Part shown: positions 3,641 to 55,162 of the stretch, piece after piece
How positions within the stretch are numbered: the stretch's first letter is position 1
Layout of the letters: every line of letters begins with the position of its first letter
NCBI GenBank assembly: GCA_000004985.1
Contig: GG738849.1
Direction: 5' to 3' (one strand)
DNA from: Naegleria gruberi
Taxonomy: Eukaryota
DNA: 64,000 bases
Notes under the pieces: model-generated
Told to the model about the DNA's origin: nothing
Database searches by the model: none
What the model saw: only the letters and a program-made list of their open reading frames with translations
Program-made: the position numbers and the translations under genes

Positions 3641-3869
3641 ACAACTTTCCGAATCGAAAAAGTACGTGACTTCACAACCAGTCTCTCTTTTTCAAAAACT
3701 ATAAGTAATTGATGTGTCTTGAAGCGGCGATCACCACCATTGTCTCTATCAAAATAAATATTCTTAAACACAGTGCTCCAAGCCTATAATGCTGATGCTT
3801 TGAGAATTAAAATTTGATAGCGAGCAAGTTTGAAGAAAGAAAGGGTCTGTTTTTTTTGATCAAATTCAA

Positions 3870-3878
3870 TCTCCCGCC
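3870..3878. promoter_or_regulatory. TCTCCCGCC (E2F-type) element next to a short hairpin
   Basis: TCTCCCGCC at 3870..3878 lies in the divergent spacer between the Myb gene (ATG 3640) and ATG 4021. It is followed by the hairpin CGGTTT-GCA-AAACCG. Confidence 0.3.
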
Positions 3879-4020
3879 AACTCATCATACGGTTTGCAAA
3901 ACCGCTTAAAAAAAATCAAACAGTCTTCTTGGACAATTGCTGAGAGAGATTTTCATCATCATTCATCATCAAATTGGTGGAAACTAATCAGTGTTAGAGT
4001 AGTAAAAGAATAGTGTAAAT

Positions 4021-5224: not shown

Positions 5225-7636
5225 TTACTTTTTCGACAAAACTTTTTCGACAACACCTGCAGCAACAGTCTCGCCATTCACTCTAGCTGTTAAACGACCA
5301 AACTTGGCAAAATCAGCATACTTTTCAATTGAGATAGTATTATCAGTAACTATGGTTACAATAGCATTCGAATACTTTGGAATACATTTTGGTTTCTTTT
5401 CAAGTATTTCTAATTGCTTGTTTAAGGTACAAGTGAGTTTGGTAATTACAGCTGGAACATCAATGTTGTGCAAATGGAGAACAACATGAGCACCCTTAAT
5501 GATTGGTATCTTCATATCAAAGGTAGCAATTCTAGCCTTGAATCTATTTGTTACCTTAATTTCATTTCCAATAGGGCATAGAATTTGACCAACCATAAGC
5601 TTTTCTATATCAATAGATCCCAAACCAATTTCAACATTGTCACCAGCATAACCATGCTTGACAGGACTCTTATGACGAAGAATGGATTTAACTGTACAAA
5701 CTTCTCTAATTGGCATAATAACCAATTCGTCTCCTTCTGAGATAGTACCTGTTTCAATCTTACCAGCAACAGTAATACCAGTTGCCAATGATTTATAAAC
5801 ATCAGAAACCGACATTCTCAAGGCCTTTTCAATATCACGAGGTTTAGGTTCGAACTTGTCAATTCTTTCAACAACTGAAAGACCATCATACCATGAAATA
5901 GATCCTGATTTTGTGATCAAATTTTCTCCTTGAAGACCACTAGCAGGAATATAAAAAACATGACTACCGTCTTGAGTTTGGAATCCTATTTGTCTCATAA
6001 AGTCGTCCAATTGAGCTACAATACTATCATAACGTTCCTTTGACCATCCGATTGAGTCCAACTTGTTTACGACAACAATTACTTGTTCAACTCCCAAACT
6101 TCTAGCTAAAATCAAGTGTTCCTTAGTTTGACCTCCATTGGCAAATCCTGTTTCAAAACCACCAGGAGTTGAATCAATAACTAGAATAGCAAAGTCAGCT
6201 TGAGCAGCACCAGTAATCATTTTTGGAATAAAATCCTTGTGACCTGGGGCATCCAAAATGGTAACATGACGATTTGGTGTTTCGAAATATCGTACACCAA
6301 CATCCATTGTGACACCACGTTGTCTTTCCTCTTCATGTTCATCCATTACCCAAGCAAAGTGGAATGATGATTTACCAATTTCAACTGACTCCTTCTTGAA
6401 TTTACGTAAAGTATTCTCAGAAACATTTCCCAATTTGTAAAGTAAATGTCCCATCAAGGTTGATTTACCAGCATCAACGTGACCAATAATAACAACATTA
6501 ATACGCTTCTTTTCCTTATCCTCAGGAGCCTTGTGTTTAATACCAGAGGATTTAATTGGTTTTGGTGATTGTGGTTCCTTCTTTTCTGATTCATCAATAT
6601 CCATATCTAAAATTGTGGTATTCTTAGACTTATTCTTTTGAGGAGTTTGTTTCTTTTCAATTGGTTTAAAGTCCTCAAGAGGTTTGTGACTAGCTTTTTG
6701 TTGAGATCTAGCAGAACTAATGAGATCATCTGGAGATGGTGTGTCAAATTTAAAAAAATCAATTATAGGGGAAGAATTGGTGTTTGAATTATTAACATGT
6801 TTTTTGTTGTGGAGTATTTCATAATAGGGAGACAATCGTTCTGGAGAGTTTGCAAAAAATGACTTTACAAAGGATTCATTGGTGAGAGAGGTTGTAAGGC
6901 AACGACCAAAAGCTGATGCAACTGCTTGACCTGTTTCTTGATTCTTTTGATTTGACGAATCAGAGAGTGAGCTTTGTGAAAGCTTTTTGATAATTTCTCT
7001 TTCATCTTCACTCAAATCAGAATCATTATTGTCTAAATCTGTCTTGTTGGATTTTCTCATATTCTTCTTCTTGTTAGAAGAAACAGATCTGAGGTATTCT
7101 TCATCAGAGGACACTTCTTCCTCCGATGAGCTGATTGACTGTTGCACTTTTGGTGTTGATTTTACATCGCTTGGTGGTTGAGTGGAATTGGAAATTTTGG
7201 AACCTCTTCCTGCCGAGAGAGGAGTTGTGTTGTTATTATTATTACTGGAAGATGATGGTGTAGTGGTAGTAGAGTTATTATCTGATGTTGTTGGTGGTAT
7301 TGTAGAGGTTTCACTCTTTACGGTTATCACAGGCCCTGAATTATTCGTTCGCATCAATCCACCCCGTCCAGCACTTACTATTGGAGTTGATGATGATGTT
7401 GTTGTTGTTGTAGTTGTGGGTATATTACCACCACTCAACAGTGATGAACCTCTTCCGGCCGAATTATTGCTACTATTGTTTGCTATTGTGGAAACAACAA
7501 CTGGAGCACTGGAAATAACATTTCCTCTACCGATGCCAGCTACACTACTAACACTTGTTGGTTGTTGTTGATTGATGGTTGGTGAAGAATTGGCGTTTCC
7601 AAGAAGGAGCCCACCTCTTCCTCTACCAGCAGACAT
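5225..7636 (-). CDS. HBS1: HBS1-like translational GTPase (ribosome-rescue factor): GTPase and domains II/III, with a long S/T/N-rich N-terminal extension
   Basis: G1 motif is GHVDAGKST, G3 is DAPGHKDF and G4 is NKLD. The block LMGHLLYKLGNV..SFHFAWVMDEHEEERQRGVTMDV is closer to HBS1L than to eRF3 (from memory). The ATG at 7636 has the typical A-run context. It may instead be exon 4 of a larger gene (see 7773..8560). Confidence 0.85.
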   Translation of the reverse strand: MSAGRGRGGLLLGNANSSPTINQQQPTSVSSVAGIGRGNVISSAPVVVSTIANNSSNNSAGRGSSLLSGGNIPTTTTTTTSSSTPIVSAGRGGLMRTNNSGPVITVKSETSTIPPTTSDNNSTTTTPSSSSNNNNNTTPLSAGRGSKISNSTQPPSDVKSTPKVQQSISSSEEEVSSDEEYLRSVSSNKKKNMRKSNKTDLDNNDSDLSEDEREIIKKLSQSSLSDSSNQKNQETGQAVASAFGRCLTTSLTNESFVKSFFANSPERLSPYYEILHNKKHVNNSNTNSSPIIDFFKFDTPSPDDLISSARSQQKASHKPLEDFKPIEKKQTPQKNKSKNTTILDMDIDESEKKEPQSPKPIKSSGIKHKAPEDKEKKRINVVIIGHVDAGKSTLMGHLLYKLGNVSENTLRKFKKESVEIGKSSFHFAWVMDEHEEERQRGVTMDVGVRYFETPNRHVTILDAPGHKDFIPKMITGAAQADFAILVIDSTPGGFETGFANGGQTKEHLILARSLGVEQVIVVVNKLDSIGWSKERYDSIVAQLDDFMRQIGFQTQDGSHVFYIPASGLQGENLITKSGSISWYDGLSVVERIDKFEPKPRDIEKALRMSVSDVYKSLATGITVAGKIETGTISEGDELVIMPIREVCTVKSILRHKSPVKHGYAGDNVEIGLGSIDIEKLMVGQILCPIGNEIKVTNRFKARIATFDMKIPIIKGAHVVLHLHNIDVPAVITKLTCTLNKQLEILEKKPKCIPKYSNAIVTIVTDNTISIEKYADFAKFGRLTARVNGETVAAGVVEKVLSKK

Positions 7637-7772
7637 TTTTTTCTATTTGATTAACAACACAAGCTCTCTCAACATTAACAGTCATTATTGCAAACCAATT
7701 CCCAGAACAATGTGTCCACTCCTATCATGTCATACTCAACACTCGTTCATGTTTTGAAAATAAACATAGAAT

Positions 7773-8560
7773 TCACACGATCAAAATGAAATTAAACATA
7801 CCAGTAAAGATATTTTCAGAAACTTCACTTGTTGGTGTTGGAGTGCCAGAAATCTCGGTAAAATTATCCAATTCTGAAACTAGAATGATATTATTCCTAT
7901 TATCCTTCTTTTTGCTTGATTGTTTCTTATTGTCATTCTTCTTTTGAGAATTGGAAGATGTGGCAGCAGGTTGTTGTTGTGTGGCTTTAGTTGTATTGGC
8001 AGCCTTATTTGAGTTATTCTTATTTCCAGTAGTTTTAGAATTATTTGATTTTACAACAATATTGACTGCTGACTTTTTCTTTCTCTCCTCTTCTTTTTGA
8101 GCCATTTCATAAATTTCATTAATGCAAGCTTCAAAATCTCCATCACATCTTTCCAAAATATCAACTAGGAATGGTTCACCTTCTGGTTTCTTAATCAATG
8201 GGAAAATTGAAAGAATATATTGTGATGATTCAGCATCAATTCCGTGAATTATAAAATCCGCAAGCTGATGAACTGGATCATCAGATTCTATTAATTATCA
8301 AATAATATTCCAAAAATCATATTGATGATAAAACATTTAAAAAGCCTTTTAAATACCACACATTGAATTTATCACACATACCATTTTGTCCATTTTCATC
8401 CTCATCATATTCATACTCATCATCGAGGTCTTATCCGATATAGAATACATAATTAGTGGCAACAGTATTAGAACACATTCAAATAATTTTAAATTCTCTC
8501 TCCAAACACCACAACTAGCAACCTACCTTCATCATCGTAAAAGTTGGAGTGTCTAGGCAT
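7773..8560 (-). CDS. HBS1 N-terminal-domain protein; either a separate gene or exons 1-3 of the HBS1 gene
   Basis: Exons on the minus strand are 8560..8527, 8429..8382 and 8287..7773. Introns are 8526..8430 (GTAGGT, 97 nt) and 8381..8288 (GTATGT, 94 nt). The product is MPRHSNFYDDEDLDDEYEYDEDENGQNESDDPV..PFLVDILERCDGDFEACINEIYEM. This resembles the HBS1L N-terminus ([20 protein letters not shown].. plus a UBA-like fold). It ends at TGA 7775..7773 unless a GTGTGA donor at 7778 is spliced to AG 7644/43. Confidence 0.6.
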
Positions 8561-8583: not shown

Positions 8584-9474
8584 TTAAGGTGGCACTATTG
8601 TTCATTGTTCACCAAAATTTAAAAAAAAATAACAAGTCGAAACAGTTTATATCTTGTTTGTCCTTTGTGACAATCATTGCCACACAATACACGAGCTGAT
8701 TTACAAGGACAACTTTTGCAGTACATGAACATGAAACACCATGATCTATTTTCTTCTTCTTTCTTTTTCGGAAATTAATTTCTGTTGATTGTGTTTCTGA
8801 AACTATGCACTTCTTTCGTCAATTTTACAACAAGCATCTTGTTTTTTCTCCATAGCACTTGTCATAATTTCCACACCAGTGATCTACATACACATTCAGT
8901 ATTGTTCTTAGAATATTCTCTTTTGCATGCTACAGAAACAGTTGAATCCTATCTGATGGTTGAGAACTTCGTGATGCAACTTCGTGATGCGATTTCATTT
9001 AAAATTTGTAGAAACATCCGAAAATAAAATTAATTGGTTTTGATAGTACTTTTAGTTGCTTATTTTCAATACGGAAACACAATAAGAAGGCAAAGTAAAG
9101 TTGGTACAAACATAACAACACATCTAGACCATATCTTGTTTTTTGCAATGTTTAATTTTGTTACTGGAGTGTAGGAGAAGATTAAAACTTTAATTTTTTT
9201 ACCGTTACGATGATGAAGAACAATCGGATCATGTTGGGATTTCATTATTTATTCTAAAGAGAGTGAAAAGTAAAGCAAAGTAAAGTAGGGATAAACTATT
9301 CACATATAAGAGAAGATGCTGTCTTCTAACCAAGTCTCCAAATTTGTAGGAGAGTGTAGGAGAACCTCTCAAACTTTAATAAATTACTTCGTCATTCAGC
9401 AAGAATTGTAAAAAATAATTAACCAAAAATTTTTACCGAATTTCCTTTTATTGTCAGCTACAGTGCCACCTTAA
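8584..9474. mobile_element. candidate TTAA-flanked inverted-repeat (MITE-like) element in a divergent promoter region
   Basis: TTAAGGTGGCACT at 8584..8596 and its exact reverse complement AGTGCCACCTTAA at 9462..9474. This reads as a 9-bp TIR (GGTGGCACT) plus TTAA on each side. The interior is non-coding and holds a degenerate 185-bp direct duplication. Confidence 0.3.
9083..9438. repeat. degenerate direct duplication with about 185-bp period
   Basis: Collinear shared words at constant offset: CAAAGTAAAGT 9091 and 9276; GAGTGTAGGAGAA 9168 and 9353; AAACTTTAAT 9185 and 9371; TTTTTACCG 9196 and 9430. Confidence 0.7.
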
Positions 9475-24479: not shown

Positions 24480-25787
24480 ATGAACGTGCAACACATAAAG
24501 ACCATTTCATCTTCCTCCTCAGAGGATGAACGAATTTCCATTATCAAATCAGAGAAAGCCTCTTCATCATCAGCATCACGTAGAAAAGTAATTTTAGGAA
24601 TTTCCATCACAATGATTATTCTGGTGATTTGTTTGATTGTTTTGGGAGTAATTGTGATGGCTATTTGTTTTGGAGTTGGTTCATATGTGTGGGATTTAGC
24701 ATTTGGAACTGATAAAGCAGAGGATTGTCCGAATAGTGTGAGACAGAACAGACCTTGGAATTTTACTGTGGCCGATGCTGATTATTGTCCTCCCTTGGTT
24801 GATTCCTATAATTATTCATTGTTGAAGAATGTTTATTTGAATTATGATGAAATTAAACCATATTTTGAGGAGGTTACATTTAAATCGAGAGATACTGAGT
24901 GGGTTGCAAGTGGAAGTGGAAATATTGTTGGAAATTTGGTGTTACAACCAGTTGTGAATGAAACGAGTCGTTTTGTGATTGTTGTGCACGGATATCAATG
25001 TTGTAGATTTACGTATGCAAGTGTTGAGCCAGCTGCCATGCTCTATAGAAATGGATTCAATGTCTTGTATATTGATTTGAGAAATTATGGAGATTCTGAT
25101 ATTTATGCTCCAAATCCATACGCTTCATATGGTTATTATGAACATCGTGATGTTTTGGGAGCTTTGGATTATTTGGAGAGTAGATTTAAATTCCTAAAGA
25201 ATGCTTCACAACCAAGAGTGGCTGTTTTTGGAACTTCAATGGTAAGTCTTTCAGGAAATAATTATTGAAACTAAACTGTTCAGGGAGCTGCAACCTCATT
25301 GATTGCCTTCTCACAAGAGAAGAGATTCAAAATGGTATTTGCCGATTCACCACCTTGTAACGTGTACGAAACAATAATGTTTGGAGCTGAACAAATTGCT
25401 CCTGGCATGTCGGGTGCCCTTTTTAATTTAGCCAAATCAGTAGTTGCAATTAAGGGAACTCAAGGATTTCCACCATTCCCTCTCGATCCTCAAACATGCA
25501 TGAAAACTGTTGACCTATCAGGAGAGAGAAGAATATTCTTCTTCCAAGGTTCATCAGATTATGTAGTTCCAGAATTCAATTATTATCAATGTATTGAAGC
25601 AGCTACCGCCAGTGCCAAATCTCAGAACGTAAACATTACAGAAAAGATCAATTCACACTTGTTTGAAGTGGATTATTCCAAGATTAGTGGAAGAGGAGTT
25701 GATTTTTGTGATGGACACCTGGTGCCAATGTATGTCGATCCTGCAGGATATGAAAAGATAATGATTGGATTTTTCAAAGATTTGTAG
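24480..25787 (+). CDS. membrane-anchored alpha/beta-hydrolase
   Basis: N-terminal TM (ILGISITMIILVICLIVLGVIVMAICFGV). The nucleophile elbow G-T-S-M-G is reconstituted across a 42-nt GTAAGT..CAG intron at 25242..25283 (..VAVFGTSM|GAATSLIAF..). Exons are 24480..25241 and 25284..25787. Confidence 0.7.
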
Positions 25788-28198: not shown

Positions 28199-29626
28199 TT
28201 ACAAATTCTTAAAGATTGAAACAACAGATGTCTTGTCGTTACCACCCATGTTAGCACAGACACCGACTTCCAAACTTCCATTCAATTGGTAATCACCTGC
28301 CTTACCCTTCATTTGCTTGAAAACTTCGTTAATTTGTTTAACACCAGTAGCCTTAATAAAAGAGTAAATAAATTATTATACTAAATACTTACACCAACAG
28401 GGTGACCGAATGAGATCAAACCACCACCAGTATTGACCATAGGCTTTGTCAAGTGGAGGAAAGCACCTTCACCTGGCTTGGAGAAGCCCAAAGCTTCATT
28501 CATACCAACTTCAGCAATAGCAAAACAGTCGTGAACTTCAGCAATGGAAACATCAGATGGTGAAACACCAGCCTTCTTGTAAGCTCTCTTAGCAGCAGCA
28601 TAAGTGGTCAACAAGTCAGAGAATGTTTCTGGAGTATCTTGATACAAGTTACCAATGGCAACTTCGGAGGCCAAAACTTCAATAGCATCAGAGTGCTTCA
28701 AGCCCAATTTTTGCAAACCTTCTTCACTGAGAACCAAAAGACCAGCACCACCATCGGAAACTTGAGAACATTCACACATCTTCAAAAAGTCCTTAATTTC
28801 TGGGTTAGAAAGGAATTTTGGTGAATCAATAATACCTTGATGATCGAGTTTAGAAGTGAACATTTGAGCCAATGGATTCTTATTACCAGCTTGATAGGCC
28901 TTGAAAGCAACCTTTTCGACATCTTCAGATTTAACAATTGAACCATACTTCTTCAAGTAGTGCATCTTACGAGTAGCATACCTATTTCATGATCAATTTC
29001 ATTTGTTCGGAATGAATATTTCATTTCGGAATTTGGTAATAATTCATCACACAATTAAAAAATCATTAAATAATTAAAAACATACAAAGCTGGGAATGTA
29101 AATTCATCGAGAACACGTTGTCTATTGAAATCGGCAGCCTTTGCCAAGTGAGCAGCACCTTCACGAGCACTGACAGTATTTTGTTCTTCGGCACCGACAA
29201 CCAAAGCAACATCACTGGTACCAGCCAAAATAGAGTCAACAGCAGCATTGAAAGCAACTAAAATTCATGAATAAATTAATCATGAAAATTAAACTTACCA
29301 CCACCAGAAGCACAAGCAGCTTCCAATCTATAAGATGGCTTGTACAACAAACCAGCATCGGCTTCAGAAATACCTGAACCAATGTGACCTTGTTGAGAGA
29401 AGCATTCACCAGCAAAGTTACCAACGAAAACTTTATCAACTTGTTTACCAGTACACTTATTCATCTTGAGGGTTTCTTGGATAGCTTGGACCAAATAAGT
29501 CTTCAAATCTGGATTGACTTGCTTGCCAAAGAGTGGGTGCTTCTTGTGAATAAAATCTGGATGACCCTTGCCAATAAACTTGGAGGTATAACCACCCAAA
29601 ACGTAGACCTTTCTGAGAGAGCTCAT
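28199..29626 (-). CDS. SCP2-type (SCPx-like) 3-ketoacyl-CoA thiolase
   Basis: Four exons: 29626..29299, 29257..29086, 28981..28393 and 28351..28199. Introns are 41, 104 and 41 nt. The active-site contexts are RLEAACASGGG, EVHDCFAI and GGGLISFGHPVGATG (reconstituted across the last intron). Confidence 0.8.
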
Positions 29627-54068: not shown

Positions 54069-55162
54069 TTACTTCCACATTTGACCCAACTTCATAACTT
54101 GGTGAGTCTTTGGACACAAGTTACAGATACGTCCACAAGCCTTGTTTGGAGTCAAGACAAATTCAAACATGAGAGCAGCAAAAATAGCACCCAAGAATGG
54201 AGCAGTGTAATAAATCCAACAATGCTTATAGAATGACCAAGAAATGAGCATTGGACCCAAAGCACGAGCTGGATTCATACAAGCACCAGTTAAAGCACCA
54301 GCCATGGCATTGGCACCAAGGGCCAAACCAATGTACAAGGCAGAAACGATCTTGGCAATAGGTTCAAAGTTGACTTCCAAGAAGATCTTGCTTTCATTTT
54401 CAACCATCTTGCTTGCTTGGTGAGGAGCAGAAGCATATGATTGAGTATTCAAGTGCTTAACCTTGACGGCAGCTCCGAAAATAGTAGTGACAAACATGAA
54501 GGTCATCAAGAGTTCAGAAGTGAAACCTCTAAGAGCAGTAGTAATGTCATCATTTGGTAAAATGAAAACAGCACCATCAATACCACCAGAAATCCAAAGA
54601 GTTAATGATGATCCGACAACAGCACCCAAACATTGGGCAATCAAATACAAAATACCTGACATGATACCAATATTACGAGTAACCAAAACACAAATAGTAA
54701 CAGCTGGATTAACGTGACCACCAGAAATTGGAGCAAAGACGTGAATGACAATAATCAAACCGAAAATGTGGCCCAAAGAACCACGAATATAATCACCTGG
54801 AACTTGTGAAGAATATTGAGAACTCAAAGTACCAATAAGAACGAACTATTGCAGGTTTAGAATAAATAATGTACTAATAATTGACTACTTACCAGCATGG
54901 TACCAATAAATTCACCCAAAACAGCACGCCAATCGAAAATAATATCGGGATGGGTAAAGAATGGGACAATGTTTGATGTAATTGGGGCTTCTTCGACTGG
55001 TTCTTGTTTATCCTCTAATTCAATTTCGTTGGCAACCAAATCTTTTCTTTGTCCTCTTTCGAGTTCATCCATACTAGTCTTACTGGCACCTTTCTTTCCA
55101 GCTGGTCTGTCGTACTTTTCATCTTCATCATGAAGAGGTTCCTCATAACGGGAGGCTTTCAT
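54069..55162 (-). CDS. aquaporin/MIP-family channel
   Basis: Exons are 55162..54893 and 54845..54069, with a 47-nt GTAAGT..TAG intron at 54892..54846. Both NPA boxes are present (SGGHVNPAVT and GACMNPARALGP). The N-terminal extension is acidic. Confidence 0.85.

What the first reader, a model, noticed from the sequence alone, without database searches (positions are those of the whole stretch)
7637..7810. HBS1 is either split into two genes or joined via a weak donor, while a consensus donor gives a truncated product
The HBS1 N-terminal domain (MPRHSNFYDDEDLDDEYEYDEDENG.., exons 8560..7773) and the HBS1 GTPase body (7636..5225) are adjacent and co-oriented. They are separated by TGA 7775..7773 and a 136-nt gap.

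- An in-frame fusion requires the non-consensus donor GTGTGA at 7778 spliced to AG 7644/43, phase 0 on both sides.
- The much better donor GTATGT at 7801..7796 is phase 1. With the same acceptor it runs into a stop after 6 codons.
- The downstream ATG 7636 has the genome-typical A-run start context, and the gap equals normal tandem-gene spacing here. Gene fission is therefore equally plausible.

Either outcome is unusual for this conserved no-go/non-stop decay factor. The outcomes are a split HBS1, or donor choice toggling between full-length and N-domain-only protein.
Basis: partly seen in the sequence, partly recalled or inferred. Interest (0 to 1): 0.5.

Follow-up and report, generated by a model that had tools for sequence, protein, structure and literature searches.

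The report
Naegleria HBS1/SKI7 gene uncoupled at intron
In Naegleria gruberi, the N-terminal module and the GTPase body of the mRNA-surveillance factor HBS1/SKI7 sit in two adjacent reading frames that normal splicing cannot join, whereas all sequenced relatives encode one fused protein; RNA data are needed to say whether the gene is truly split.

Summary
The window is Naegleria gruberi NEG-M, and the public annotation already lists two genes: XP_002681805.1 (198 aa, hypothetical) and XP_002681804.1 (803 aa).

N. fowleri, N. lovaniensis, Willaertia magna and an uncultured relative carry one fused gene.

In N. gruberi none of the 8 AGs between that donor and ATG 7636 restores the frame. The best acceptor (7644/43) is one base out of frame: 6 A before the ATG, against 5 nt in N. 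lovaniensis. A second strain has the same sequence.

ATG 7636 has the species' start signature, AAAAAA-ATG. That context occurs at 0.7% of all ATGs and at nearly half of probable gene starts. The orthologous ATGs lack it.

I found an in-frame 26-nt micro-exon path, but 68% of shuffled gaps give one too.

Best reading (about 0.5): a lineage-specific uncoupling into a 22-kDa N-module and an 87-kDa body. The rival is a fusion made through weak splice sites. Only RNA or protein data can settle this.

The parts
8527..8560 (-). Exon 1 of the N-module (MPRHSNFYDDE + G); start context agaaaaATG
   Evidence: The orthologues begin MPRHSNFY.. or MSRHRN...
8430..8526 (-). Intron 1 (GTAGGT..AAG, 97 nt, phase 1)
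   Evidence: An intron sits at the same position in N. lovaniensis, N. fowleri, L003 and Willaertia.
8382..8429 (-). Exon 2 (acidic stretch DLDDEYEYDEDENGQN)
8288..8381 (-). Intron 2 (GTATGT..TAG, 94 nt)
7802..8287 (-). Exon 3. It holds the UBA-like HBS1_N-type helical domain, a Lys/Asn-rich linker and the conserved motif NIILVSELDNFTEISGTPTPTSEVS
   Evidence: Alignment A1. hhalign gives 97.6% probability against the animal HBS1L N-terminus. Its evolutionary rate equals that of species where the module is fused.
7796..7801 (-).
   Evidence: It scores 10.5 bits, the 99.6th percentile of all GT in the window. The same donor and phase occur in N. lovaniensis, N. fowleri, L003 and Willaertia.
7773..7778 (-). 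Its last three bases are the TGA that closes the unspliced N-module ORF (198 aa, as in XP_002681805.1)
   Evidence: PWM score 1.0 bit.
7688..7740 (-). The only part of the gap that aligns with N. fowleri intron 3. The same block is the best-conserved island between the N. lovaniensis and N. fowleri introns. Function unknown
   Evidence: (z 3.45, 3/500 shuffles; N. lovaniensis vs N. fowleri z 17.6). No Rfam match. No convincing consensus fold.
7696..7721 (-). Candidate 26-nt micro-exon, or 23 nt from the tandem AG at 7720/19. With donor 7801 and acceptor 7643 it restores the frame: ..NIFT-GVDTLFWEL-KKMSAGRG
   Evidence: Its signals are weak: acceptor 7722 scores -3.9 bits and donor GTTTGC 7695..7690 scores -1.9 bits. 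68% of shuffled gaps also give such a path.
7643..7654 (-). Branch-point-like TTAAT (7654..7650), then the acceptor AG 7644/43. The acceptor is part of an in-frame TAG (7645..7643) that closes the body frame upstream
   Evidence: The acceptor scores 1.1 bits, within the leave-one-out range of true acceptors, -1.2 to 7.4. The branch A lies 8 nt from the AG, against 9-15 nt in surveyed introns.
7637..7642 (-). A6 run between acceptor and ATG. Its length (6, not 5 or 8) puts the conserved donor out of frame, and it also forms the species' typical start context
   Evidence: N. lovaniensis has 5 nt (tagtg) at this place.
7623..7625 (-). TAG that ends the N-module ORF after 7801>7643 splicing (195 aa). 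It lies 11 nt downstream of the body ATG
5225..7636 (-). Body ORF of 803 aa (XP_002681804.1). Its features, in order:
- five [SAI]GRG repeats (aa 4-145);
- acidic SSDEEYLRSV/DLSEDE motifs;
- the SKI7-like candidate ASAFGRCL (6919..6896);
- the Patch-4-like FFKFDTPSPDDLI (6757..6719);
- the GTPase domain (6508..5915);
- domains II and III (5773..5240).
   Evidence: The motif consensus sequences are taken from PMC6143672.

Best explanation
This is the single N. gruberi copy found of an ancestrally single HBS1/SKI7-type gene. That gene had three 5' introns. Intron 3 (phase 1, G|GTATGT) lies between two parts:
- the N-terminal module, made of an acidic tail and a UBA-like HBS1_N domain; in human HBS1L this shared N-terminal fragment binds the SKI complex;

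In the N. gruberi lineage the two reading frames have become uncoupled at the 3' end of that intron. The orthologous donor is intact. The only decent acceptor is AG 7644/43, and it is followed by six A rather than 5 or 8 nt.

The default spliced mRNA therefore encodes a 195-aa (22-kDa) N-module protein that stops at TAG 7625..7623. The unspliced form gives 198 aa. The 803-aa (87-kDa) body starts at its own ATG 7636, which has acquired the species' AAAAAA-ATG initiation context.

Shown: the anatomy, the orthology, the frame arithmetic, the start-context statistics, and the constraint on both halves.

Inferred: that the two halves are made as separate polypeptides. The body would most simply come from a transcript initiating in the 136-164-nt gap.
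For: 1. Relatives are fused. N. lovaniensis (989 aa), N. fowleri (1021 aa; two separate accessions carry a 1021-aa product) and Willaertia (996 aa) are annotated as one protein. L003 joins cleanly with the same phase-1 GTATGT donor. P0016 is an uninterrupted 881-aa ORF on a 2.7-kb contig.

2. Frame arithmetic from the conserved donor:
   - N. gruberi: 0 of 8 AGs upstream of the ATG give a fusion.
   - N. fowleri: 4 of the last 5 do.
   - N. lovaniensis: the last 2 do.

3. Start context:
   - 6/6 A before ATG 7636.
   - 0.7% of all 2483 ATGs in the window have this.
   - About 45% of first ATGs of long ORFs have at least 5 A.
   - The orthologous ATGs read ctagtagtgATG and aacgaggaATG, although neighbouring genes in those loci use aaaaaaATG.

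4. Every other donor in the region scores 1.8 bits or less, against 8.3-13.4 bits for 14 surveyed introns.

5. A second strain has an identical structure, so this is neither an assembly error nor a laboratory mutation.

6. The N-module shows no rate acceleration. N. gruberi is 54-57% identical to N. lovaniensis, N. fowleri and L003, and L003 is 55-57% identical to N. lovaniensis and N. fowleri. Both halves are therefore still functional.

7. The gap length equals that of other tandem gene pairs in the window.

8. The public annotation calls two genes.
Against: - No RNA or protein evidence was available.
- The fused state is universal in relatives. In this family the N-terminus binds the SKI complex and the middle binds the exosome (PMC5389692, PMC6143672), so separating them should abolish a SKI7-type bridge.
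- The perfectly conserved GTATGT donor suggests the upstream transcript still runs into the body region.
- An in-frame micro-exon path exists and overlaps the only conserved island of the gap.
- N. fowleri intron 1 uses a GTTTGT donor, so off-consensus donors can function in this genus.
- No promoter or poly(A) signal could be recognised in the gap.
- The annotations of relatives are gene predictions, not cDNAs.
Confidence: 0.5

Rival explanations
1. The gene is still one gene making one ~110-kDa protein. The conserved GTATGT donor splices to AG 7723/22 (or 7720/19). A 26/23-nt micro-exon (GVDTLFWEL) is included. A second, 53-nt intron (GTTTGC 7695 .. AG 7643) is then removed. On this view the public two-gene annotation is a missed-intron error.
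For: - The path is in frame and free of stops, giving 1003 or 1002 aa.
- Introns of 41-62 nt are common in this window.
- The micro-exon and both of its splice sites fall inside the only block of the gap that aligns with N. fowleri intron 3. That block is also the best-conserved intronic island between N. lovaniensis and N. fowleri.
- The junction peptide ..DTLFWELKKM-SAGRG loosely resembles the motif D[AT]xL[LM]K[ST][LM]GRG / EGELLK[SA]MGRG that opens the GRG region in relatives.
- A GTTTGT donor is used in N. fowleri intron 1.
- A fused product fits the SKI7 bridging logic.
Against: - Donor GTTTGC scores -1.9 bits, the 62nd percentile of all GT. Acceptor 7722 scores -3.9 bits, below the leave-one-out range of true acceptors.
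- 68% of dinucleotide shuffles of the gap also yield some in-frame micro-exon path.
- In N. fowleri and N. lovaniensis the corresponding acceptor is GG and the corresponding donor is GC, so the exon is not conserved as such.
- This model does not explain the N. gruberi-specific A6 start context.
Confidence: 0.27
2. Competing 5' sites, GTATGT 7801 (truncating) and GTGTGA 7778 (in frame), share acceptor 7643. They toggle output between an N-module-only protein and full-length HBS1.
For: - GTGTGA>7643 is phase 0 on both sides and gives 1002 aa.
- Alternative processing between the N-terminus and the GTPase is a conserved theme of HBS1/SKI7 loci (PMC6143672, PMC7491326, PMC5389692).
Against: - GTGTGA scores 1.0 bit and sits 23 nt downstream of a 10.5-bit donor.
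- It overlaps the TGA.
- No relative has a donor at that position, and the segment it would add (GMFNFILI) has no counterpart in any orthologue.
- Any full-length product made this way should be minor.
Confidence: 0.08
3. One spliced, functionally bicistronic mRNA (7801>7643) makes both proteins or a fusion by recoding. The options are reinitiation at AUG 7636, which lies 11 nt before the N-ORF stop; a +1 slip of tRNA-Lys; or transcriptional slippage on the A7 run that restores the frame.
For: - In the spliced mRNA the sequence is ACU GAA AAA AAU GUC UGC UGG UAG. The body AUG is embedded in it, in the +1 frame, directly after a run of 7 A.
- In N. lovaniensis, the acceptor homologous to the N. 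fowleri acceptor also ends the N-ORF, 18 nt before the body ATG.
Against: - No stimulatory element is recognisable.
- Reinitiation after a 195-codon ORF is normally very inefficient.
- From general knowledge, A7 is short for RNA polymerase slippage.
- The 0-frame codon after the run is a sense codon, not a stop.
Confidence: 0.07
4. Artefact or decay. Either the one-base offset is an assembly error, or one of the two halves is a pseudogene.
For: The offset lies in a homopolymer run.
Against: - The Sanger-era reference and an independent Illumina metagenome contig agree base for base.
- Both halves keep open frames, intact introns 1-2, and normal conservation.
Confidence: 0.03

Closest known systems
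Orthologous HBS1/SKI7 genes of Naegleria fowleri (XP_044563623.1 / CAG4714951.1), N. lovaniensis (C9374_009250) and Willaertia magna (ABK040_010512)
   Same: - Same N-module, GRG repeats, SDEEYLRSV, FG.CLT..L, Patch-4-like motif and GTPase.
- Same three 5' introns, including the phase-1 G|GTATGT intron 3.
   Different: In these species an AG just upstream of the MSA(A)GRG methionine is in frame, so one 989-1021-aa protein is predicted. N. gruberi is one base out of frame and has an A6 start context that they lack.
Alternatively spliced SKI7/HBS1 loci of fungi, plants and animals (Marshall et al. 2013, PMC3597508; Brunkard and Baker 2018, PMC6143672; PMC7491326)
   Same: [quoted passage not shown]
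- The variable processing site lies between the N-terminus and the GTPase.
- The N. gruberi body carries FFKFDTPSPDDLI, which fits the published Patch-4-like consensus PFKFDxPSPDDhV.
   Different: In the known cases both isoforms share the N-terminus and differ by inclusion of the exosome-binding exon. Here the break would separate the N-terminus from everything else. No RNA evidence for alternative splicing exists for Naegleria.
Human HBS1L isoforms V1 and V3 (Kalisiak et al. 2017, PMC5389692)
   Same: An N-terminal fragment can be combined with different C-terminal parts, and one product lacks the GTPase. The shared N-terminal fragment is the SKI-complex-binding part.
   Different: V3 gains a long exosome-binding exon. 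The N. gruberi short product would be only the N-module plus 6-9 unrelated residues.
Rice Os04g58140.2, a retained 'poison' intron with a premature stop and a downstream alternative start (PMC6143672)
   Same: An HBS1/SKI7 transcript in which an intron-borne stop ends the upstream frame, and a downstream ATG could start an N-terminally truncated protein.
   Different: In rice this is one of two splice forms and a productive fused form exists. In N. gruberi no canonical productive form can be drawn.
S. cerevisiae HBS1 and SKI7 (duplicated, subfunctionalised genes)
   Same: A lineage-specific rearrangement of how the functions of this locus are distributed among polypeptides.
   Different: Yeast duplicated the whole gene. 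N. gruberi would have cut a single gene in two.

Membership tests
HBS1 subfamily of eEF1A-like translational GTPases | GTP_EFTU G domain followed by domain II and domain III | tested here: met
   Pfam gives GTP_EFTU at 1.9e-50, D2 at 2.5e-11, and D3/eEF1A_C at 6e-12 and 2e-22 on the 803-aa ORF.
HBS1 subfamily of eEF1A-like translational GTPases | Closer to HBS1 than to eRF3 or eEF1A | tested here: met
   Among solved structures the best hit is mammalian HBS1L 5lzw at 3.3e-139. eRF3a scores 1.1e-97 and eEF1A about 1e-94. The best non-heterolobosean database hits are named HBS1-like.
HBS1 subfamily of eEF1A-like translational GTPases | HBS1-type N-terminal module (M[AS]RHRN.. acidic tail plus UBA-like HBS1_N domain) | tested here: met
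   The Pfam HBS1_N model itself gives no hit at E<0.1; only weak CUE/UBA_4 hits appear. A profile of 8 heterolobosean N-modules aligns to the animal HBS1L N-terminus with 97.6% probability, E 4.2e-12, over the helical domain. The MPRHSN start matches MSRHRN/MARHRN.
HBS1 subfamily of eEF1A-like translational GTPases | N-module and GTPase on one polypeptide | tested here: inconclusive
   No canonical in-frame splice exists: 0 of 8 AGs give a fusion. Only weak-signal paths remain. No transcript or protein data were available.
HBS1 subfamily of eEF1A-like translational GTPases | Binds Pelota/Dom34 and dissociates stalled ribosomes | not testable with these tools
   This is a biochemical property.
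SKI7-type product of an HBS1/SKI7 locus | Patch-4-like motif (plants IaPFKFDaPSPDDhV; metazoans IaPF[D/R]F[K/D][S/T]aSPDDIV) | tested here: met
   The body has IIDFFKFDTPSPDDLI at aa 291-306. The motif is conserved in all heterolobosean orthologues. The consensus comes from PMC6143672. The comparison was made by eye. phmmer of this region against PDB chains found nothing.
SKI7-type product of an HBS1/SKI7 locus | SKI7-like exosome-binding motif (RxxxFxxxL; plants A+SLFaaa[P/L]; metazoans A+PShFAahL) | tested here: inconclusive
   The candidate is ASAFGRCLTTSL (aa 240-251). It is conserved as SAFG.CL or STFAQCL in relatives. It is only a loose match to the published consensus, and no profile was available to test it.
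SKI7-type product of an HBS1/SKI7 locus | Alternative splicing between the N-terminus and the GTPase yields two isoforms | not testable with these tools
   This needs RNA data. No transcript-derived proteins of N. gruberi were found in the protein collection.
Orthologous U2-type spliceosomal intron 3 | Consensus GTA[AGT]GT donor at the orthologous, phase-1 position | tested here: met
   GTATGT at 7801 scores 10.5 bits. The same donor and phase occur in four relatives.
Orthologous U2-type spliceosomal intron 3 | An acceptor that restores the downstream frame | tested here: not met
   All 8 AGs between the donor and the ATG lead to a stop within 1-15 codons. In-frame AGs exist only inside the body ORF, and they are GAG-type.
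U12-type (minor) intron | RTATCCTT 5' site, TCCTTRAY branch site 10-15 nt from the 3' end, and a minor spliceosome in the organism | tested here: not met
   ATATCTTT at 7813..7806 matches 7/8 and TTGTTAAT matches 6/8. A survey of 263 species found no strong evidence of minor introns or minor snRNAs in the six Excavata genomes it analysed; Naegleria is not named in the text I read (PMC11347168). All orthologues use the U2-type GTATGT donor.
Gene fission (two independent transcription units) | Own promoter or transcription start for the downstream half, and own 3' end for the upstream half | not testable with these tools
   Only indirect evidence is available: the A6 start context and typical tandem-gene spacing. 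No shared upstream motif was found.

The most novel reading that the evidence does not exclude
The conserved intronic island (7740..7688, and its counterparts in the N. fowleri and N. lovaniensis introns) marks an internal promoter or regulatory exon. All Naegleria species would then make a body-only isoform alongside an N-module-containing one. N. gruberi would have taken this to the extreme, with the SKI-binding N-module and the exosome-binding GTPase body working as two separate polypeptides. A related version has both made from one spliced bicistronic mRNA through stop/start coupling at AUGUCUGCUGGUAG.
Probability: 0.12. Interest if true: 0.6.

Novelty: new variant of a known kind. Interest (0 to 1): 0.38.

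Why it matters
HBS1/SKI7 links ribosome rescue to SKI-complex and exosome mRNA decay. In the systems studied, the N-terminus (SKI binding), the middle motifs (exosome binding) and the GTPase (Pelota and ribosome binding) are combined on one chain by splicing or by gene duplication.

A free-living excavate in which the N-module is physically separate from the rest would be a natural dissection of these functions. It would show whether the SKI-binding module can act in trans.

If instead a weak micro-exon or a weak donor joins the two halves, the locus documents a mis-annotated gene: a 'hypothetical protein' that is really the HBS1 N-terminus. It would also be a case of off-consensus splicing in a genome whose donors are otherwise very uniform.

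Either way the reference annotation needs a note. XP_002681805.1 is the HBS1/SKI7 N-module. XP_002681804.1 is HBS1/SKI7, not a generic eEF1A-family protein.

Tried and rejected
1. **Transcript evidence.** No transcript-derived or fused N. gruberi protein is in the 15-billion-protein collection. Exact look-ups of the two N. gruberi proteins in the contig index found nothing. A literature search for the accession numbers found nothing.

2. **Closer relatives.** Two metagenome scans returned nothing, one with a protein alignment and one with a degenerate TEISGTPTPT pattern. No third N. gruberi-clade sequence is available.

3. **Strain comparison.** L001 is only 0.5% divergent, so the identical gap says nothing about constraint.

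4. **Micro-exon as positive evidence.** Rejected as such, because 68% of shuffled gaps give an in-frame path.

5. **Acceptors inside the body ORF (7621, 7615).**
   - They are in frame.
   - They are GAG-type and sit directly after a TAG that is out of frame.
   - I consider them unlikely.

6. **U12-type intron from ATATCTTT 7813.** Rejected.

7. **Structured RNA or snoRNA in the gap or intron.** Rfam gave no hit. The consensus fold is only -4.2 kcal/mol.

8. **The island as a common promoter motif.** No recurrence upstream of other genes in the window.

9. **Acceptor PWM.** Leave-one-out scores show it has little discriminating power. Only the donor PWM is used as an argument.

10. **PDB sequence search for the SKI7 and Patch-4 region.** No hits.
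Full report
**What is there**

On the minus strand an N-terminal coding unit starts at ATG 8560. It has two short introns: 8526..8430 (GTAGGT..AAG) and 8381..8288 (GTATGT..TAG). Its frame stays open to TGA 7775..7773.

After 136 nt an 803-aa ORF runs from ATG 7636 to TAA 5227..5225. It carries a complete eEF1A-type G domain plus domains II and III.

GTATGT 7801..7796 is phase 1, and joined to AG 7644/43 it gives ..NIFT-EKNVCW-stop. GTGTGA 7778 joined to the same AG is in frame. The ATG is preceded by AAAAAA.

**Source and annotation**

- The N-unit read through to the TGA is identical to XP_002681805.1, the hypothetical protein NAEGRDRAFT_63006 (198 aa).
- The 803-aa ORF is identical to XP_002681804.1, annotated as a 'eukaryotic elongation factor 1 alpha family protein' of Naegleria gruberi.
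- The public annotation therefore already treats the locus as two genes.
- An independent metagenome contig from a second strain (L001) is 99.5% identical over 6 kb. It has the same gap base for base, including the six A. The arrangement is not an assembly error.

**Identity of the two halves**

- The body's best solved homologue is mammalian HBS1L at E 3e-139. eRF3a scores 1e-97 and eEF1A 1e-94. Its best named database relatives are HBS1-like proteins, and Acrasis kona 'Ski7'.
- Pfam's HBS1_N model does not hit the N-unit.
- A profile of eight heterolobosean N-modules aligns to the animal HBS1L N-terminus with 97.6% probability, E 4e-12. The MPRHSN.. acidic start mirrors MSRHRN/MARHRN.
- Upstream of the GTPase the body carries five [SAI]GRG repeats and FFKFDTPSPDDLI. 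The latter fits the published Patch-4-like consensus of SKI7-type proteins.
- The body also carries a looser candidate for the SKI7-like motif, ASAFGRCL.
- The locus is therefore of the HBS1/SKI7 type. For that family, alternative processing between the N-terminus and the GTPase is well documented (PMC6143672, PMC7491326, PMC3597508, PMC5389692).

**Relatives**

- N. lovaniensis (989 aa), N. fowleri (1021 aa; two separate accessions carry a 1021-aa product) and Willaertia magna (996 aa) are annotated as one protein covering both halves.
- I mapped these proteins onto their loci, and read an uncultured relative (L003) directly. All four have an intron at the orthologous place, phase 1, with donor G|GTATGT. 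It joins in frame to the exon that begins the GRG region.
- P0016 is an uninterrupted 881-aa fused ORF on a 2.7-kb contig.
- The ancestral state is therefore one gene.

**Why N. gruberi differs**

- From that donor, none of the eight AGs upstream of ATG 7636 gives a fusion. In N. fowleri four of the last five do, and in N. lovaniensis the last two do.
- The best acceptor, AG 7644/43, follows a TTAAT branch-like site and is followed by 6 nt before the ATG.
- The corresponding distances are 5 nt in N. lovaniensis and 8 or 2 nt in N. fowleri, all equal to 2 mod 3. One base in the A-run is the whole difference.
- That AG is also part of an in-frame TAG that closes the body frame upstream.

**Splice-signal survey**

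I assembled 14 confident introns from the window by joining coding-like ORF segments.

- All have GTA[AGT]GT donors.
- Lengths are 41-259 nt, and many are 41-62 nt.
- Branch-like CTAAA, TTAAT or TTGAT sites lie 9-15 nt before the AG in most of them.

A PWM built on these introns gives 10.5 bits for donor 7801, against 8.3-13.4 bits for the true donors. GTGTGA 7778 scores 1.0, GTTTGC 7695 scores -1.9, and every other GT in the region scores 1.8 or less.

The acceptor PWM has little power. Leave-one-out scores of true acceptors range from -1.2 to 7.4. Acceptor 7643 (1.1) is acceptable, and 7722 (-3.9) is below that range.

**In-frame paths**

There are eleven single-intron solutions.

I also found a two-intron path: 7801>7722 (or 7719), a 26/23-nt micro-exon, then GTTTGC 7695>7643 as a 53-nt intron. 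It gives ..NIFT(G)VDTLFWEL-KKMSAGRG.

Points in its favour:
- A 53-nt intron is a normal size here.
- N. fowleri intron 1 uses a GTTTGT donor.
- The micro-exon lies in the only block of the gap that aligns with N. fowleri intron 3 (z 3.45; 3 of 500 shuffles). That block is also the one strongly conserved island between the otherwise unalignable N. lovaniensis and N. fowleri introns.

Points against it:
- 68% of dinucleotide shuffles of the gap also offer an in-frame micro-exon path.
- Both of its internal signals are weak.
- In the other two species the corresponding acceptor is GG and the corresponding donor is GC.

**Start context**

- Of 22 first ATGs of long ORFs in the window, 45% have at least 5 A in positions -6..-1. 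Only 2.7% of all 2483 ATGs do, and 0.7% have 6/6.
- ATG 7636 has 6/6.
- The orthologous ATGs of N. lovaniensis (ctagtagtgATG) and N. fowleri (aacgaggaATG) do not, although neighbouring genes in those loci start with aaaaaaATG.
- This is the strongest single argument that this methionine functions as an initiator specifically in N. gruberi.

**Constraint**

The N-module evolves no faster in N. gruberi than in L003. N. gruberi is 54-57% identical to N. lovaniensis, N. fowleri and L003, and L003 is 55-57% identical to N. lovaniensis and N. fowleri. Both halves are therefore functional.

**Verdict**

- Most likely (about 0.5): the frames have been uncoupled in the N. gruberi lineage. A ~22-kDa N-module protein (195 or 198 aa) and an 87-kDa body starting at 7636 are made separately.
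- About 0.27: a full-length protein is still made through the weak micro-exon.
- About 0.07: recoding or reinitiation on a bicistronic spliced mRNA.
- About 0.03: artefact or pseudogene.

Two things count against a clean fission: the universal fusion in relatives, and the functional logic that the N-terminus binds the SKI complex while the middle binds the exosome (PMC5389692). The perfectly kept donor also suggests that upstream transcripts still run into the body.

No RNA or protein data could be reached with the tools, so this remains an inference. Junction reads, transcript-end mapping or junction peptides would decide it.

**Leads that went nowhere**

- A U12-type reading of ATATCTTT.
- Rfam and consensus folding of the island.
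- A promoter-motif search.
- Metagenome scans for closer relatives.
- Contig and literature look-ups for the N. gruberi accessions.

Noticed in passing
window 8584..9474: An ~882-bp insertion with a TTAA target-site duplication (8584-8587, 9471-9474) and perfect terminal inverted repeats GGTGGCACT...AGTGCCACC. It has no long ORF. It is absent from the 99.5%-identical strain contig L001, which has the empty TTAA site. It looks like a non-autonomous TTAA-specific (piggyBac-like) element that is polymorphic between N. gruberi strains. It sits only 24 nt upstream of the HBS1 N-module ATG, so in NEG-M it separates that ATG from its ancestral 5' flank.
   Followed up: partly
window 7740..7688; L006 about 3870..3930; L002 about 3860..3920: A conserved island inside intron 3 (..TGAGAATTTCATGATGG.GAGAGAA..GTTC....GGGAGAG.TTGGCTTT). 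It is about 85% identical between N. lovaniensis and N. fowleri, while the rest of the intron is 30-50% identical, and it is still recognisable in N. gruberi. One-base indels argue against simple protein coding. It has no Rfam match and no convincing fold. Function unknown.
   Followed up: partly
L002 4040..4095 (N. lovaniensis): In N. lovaniensis the acceptor homologous to the N. fowleri acceptor (AG|ATCAAAATTC) gives a stop after 6 codons, because of a 5-nt insertion. The published model uses a tandem TAG|TAG 5 or 2 nt before the ATG instead. The 3' end of this intron is therefore evolutionarily labile across the genus.
   Followed up: partly
window 7627..7200 (body aa 1-150): Five spaced [SAI]GRG motifs sit in Ser/Thr/Asn-rich spacers, often as GRG(S/G)(S/L)L. 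The array is conserved across Heterolobosea (Willaertia, Acrasis, and the metagenomic relatives P0014, P0016, P0017). There it usually opens with D/E-x-x-L-[LM]-K-x-[LM]-GRG. I know of no described function for such an array in HBS1/SKI7.
   Followed up: no
L006 3034..3190 (N. fowleri intron 1): Intron 1 of the N. fowleri orthologue must use a GTTTGT donor, whereas N. gruberi has GTAGGT at the same position. Off-consensus donors therefore do function in the genus.
   Followed up: no
window-wide, for example 25242..25283(+), 29298..29258(-), 28392..28352(-), 54892..54846(-): Many very short introns (41-62 nt) have uniform GTAAGT donors and a CTAAA or TTAAT motif 9-12 nt before the AG. This gives a compact splice-signal set that could be used to re-annotate the window.
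   Followed up: partly
window 7813..7806 and 7657..7650: ATATCTTT (7/8 match to the U12-type 5' site) and TTGTTAAT (6/8 match to the U12 branch site) lie at a U12-like spacing from the 3' end. I take this as coincidence. The first is the codons for N-I-F, and no strong evidence of a minor spliceosome was found in the six Excavata genomes surveyed in PMC11347168; Naegleria is not named in the text I read.
   Followed up: yes
window 5225..8560 (annotation): The public names are uninformative. XP_002681804.1 is labelled generically as an eEF1A-family protein, although it is clearly HBS1/SKI7. XP_002681805.1 is 'hypothetical', although it is the HBS1 N-module.
   Followed up: yes
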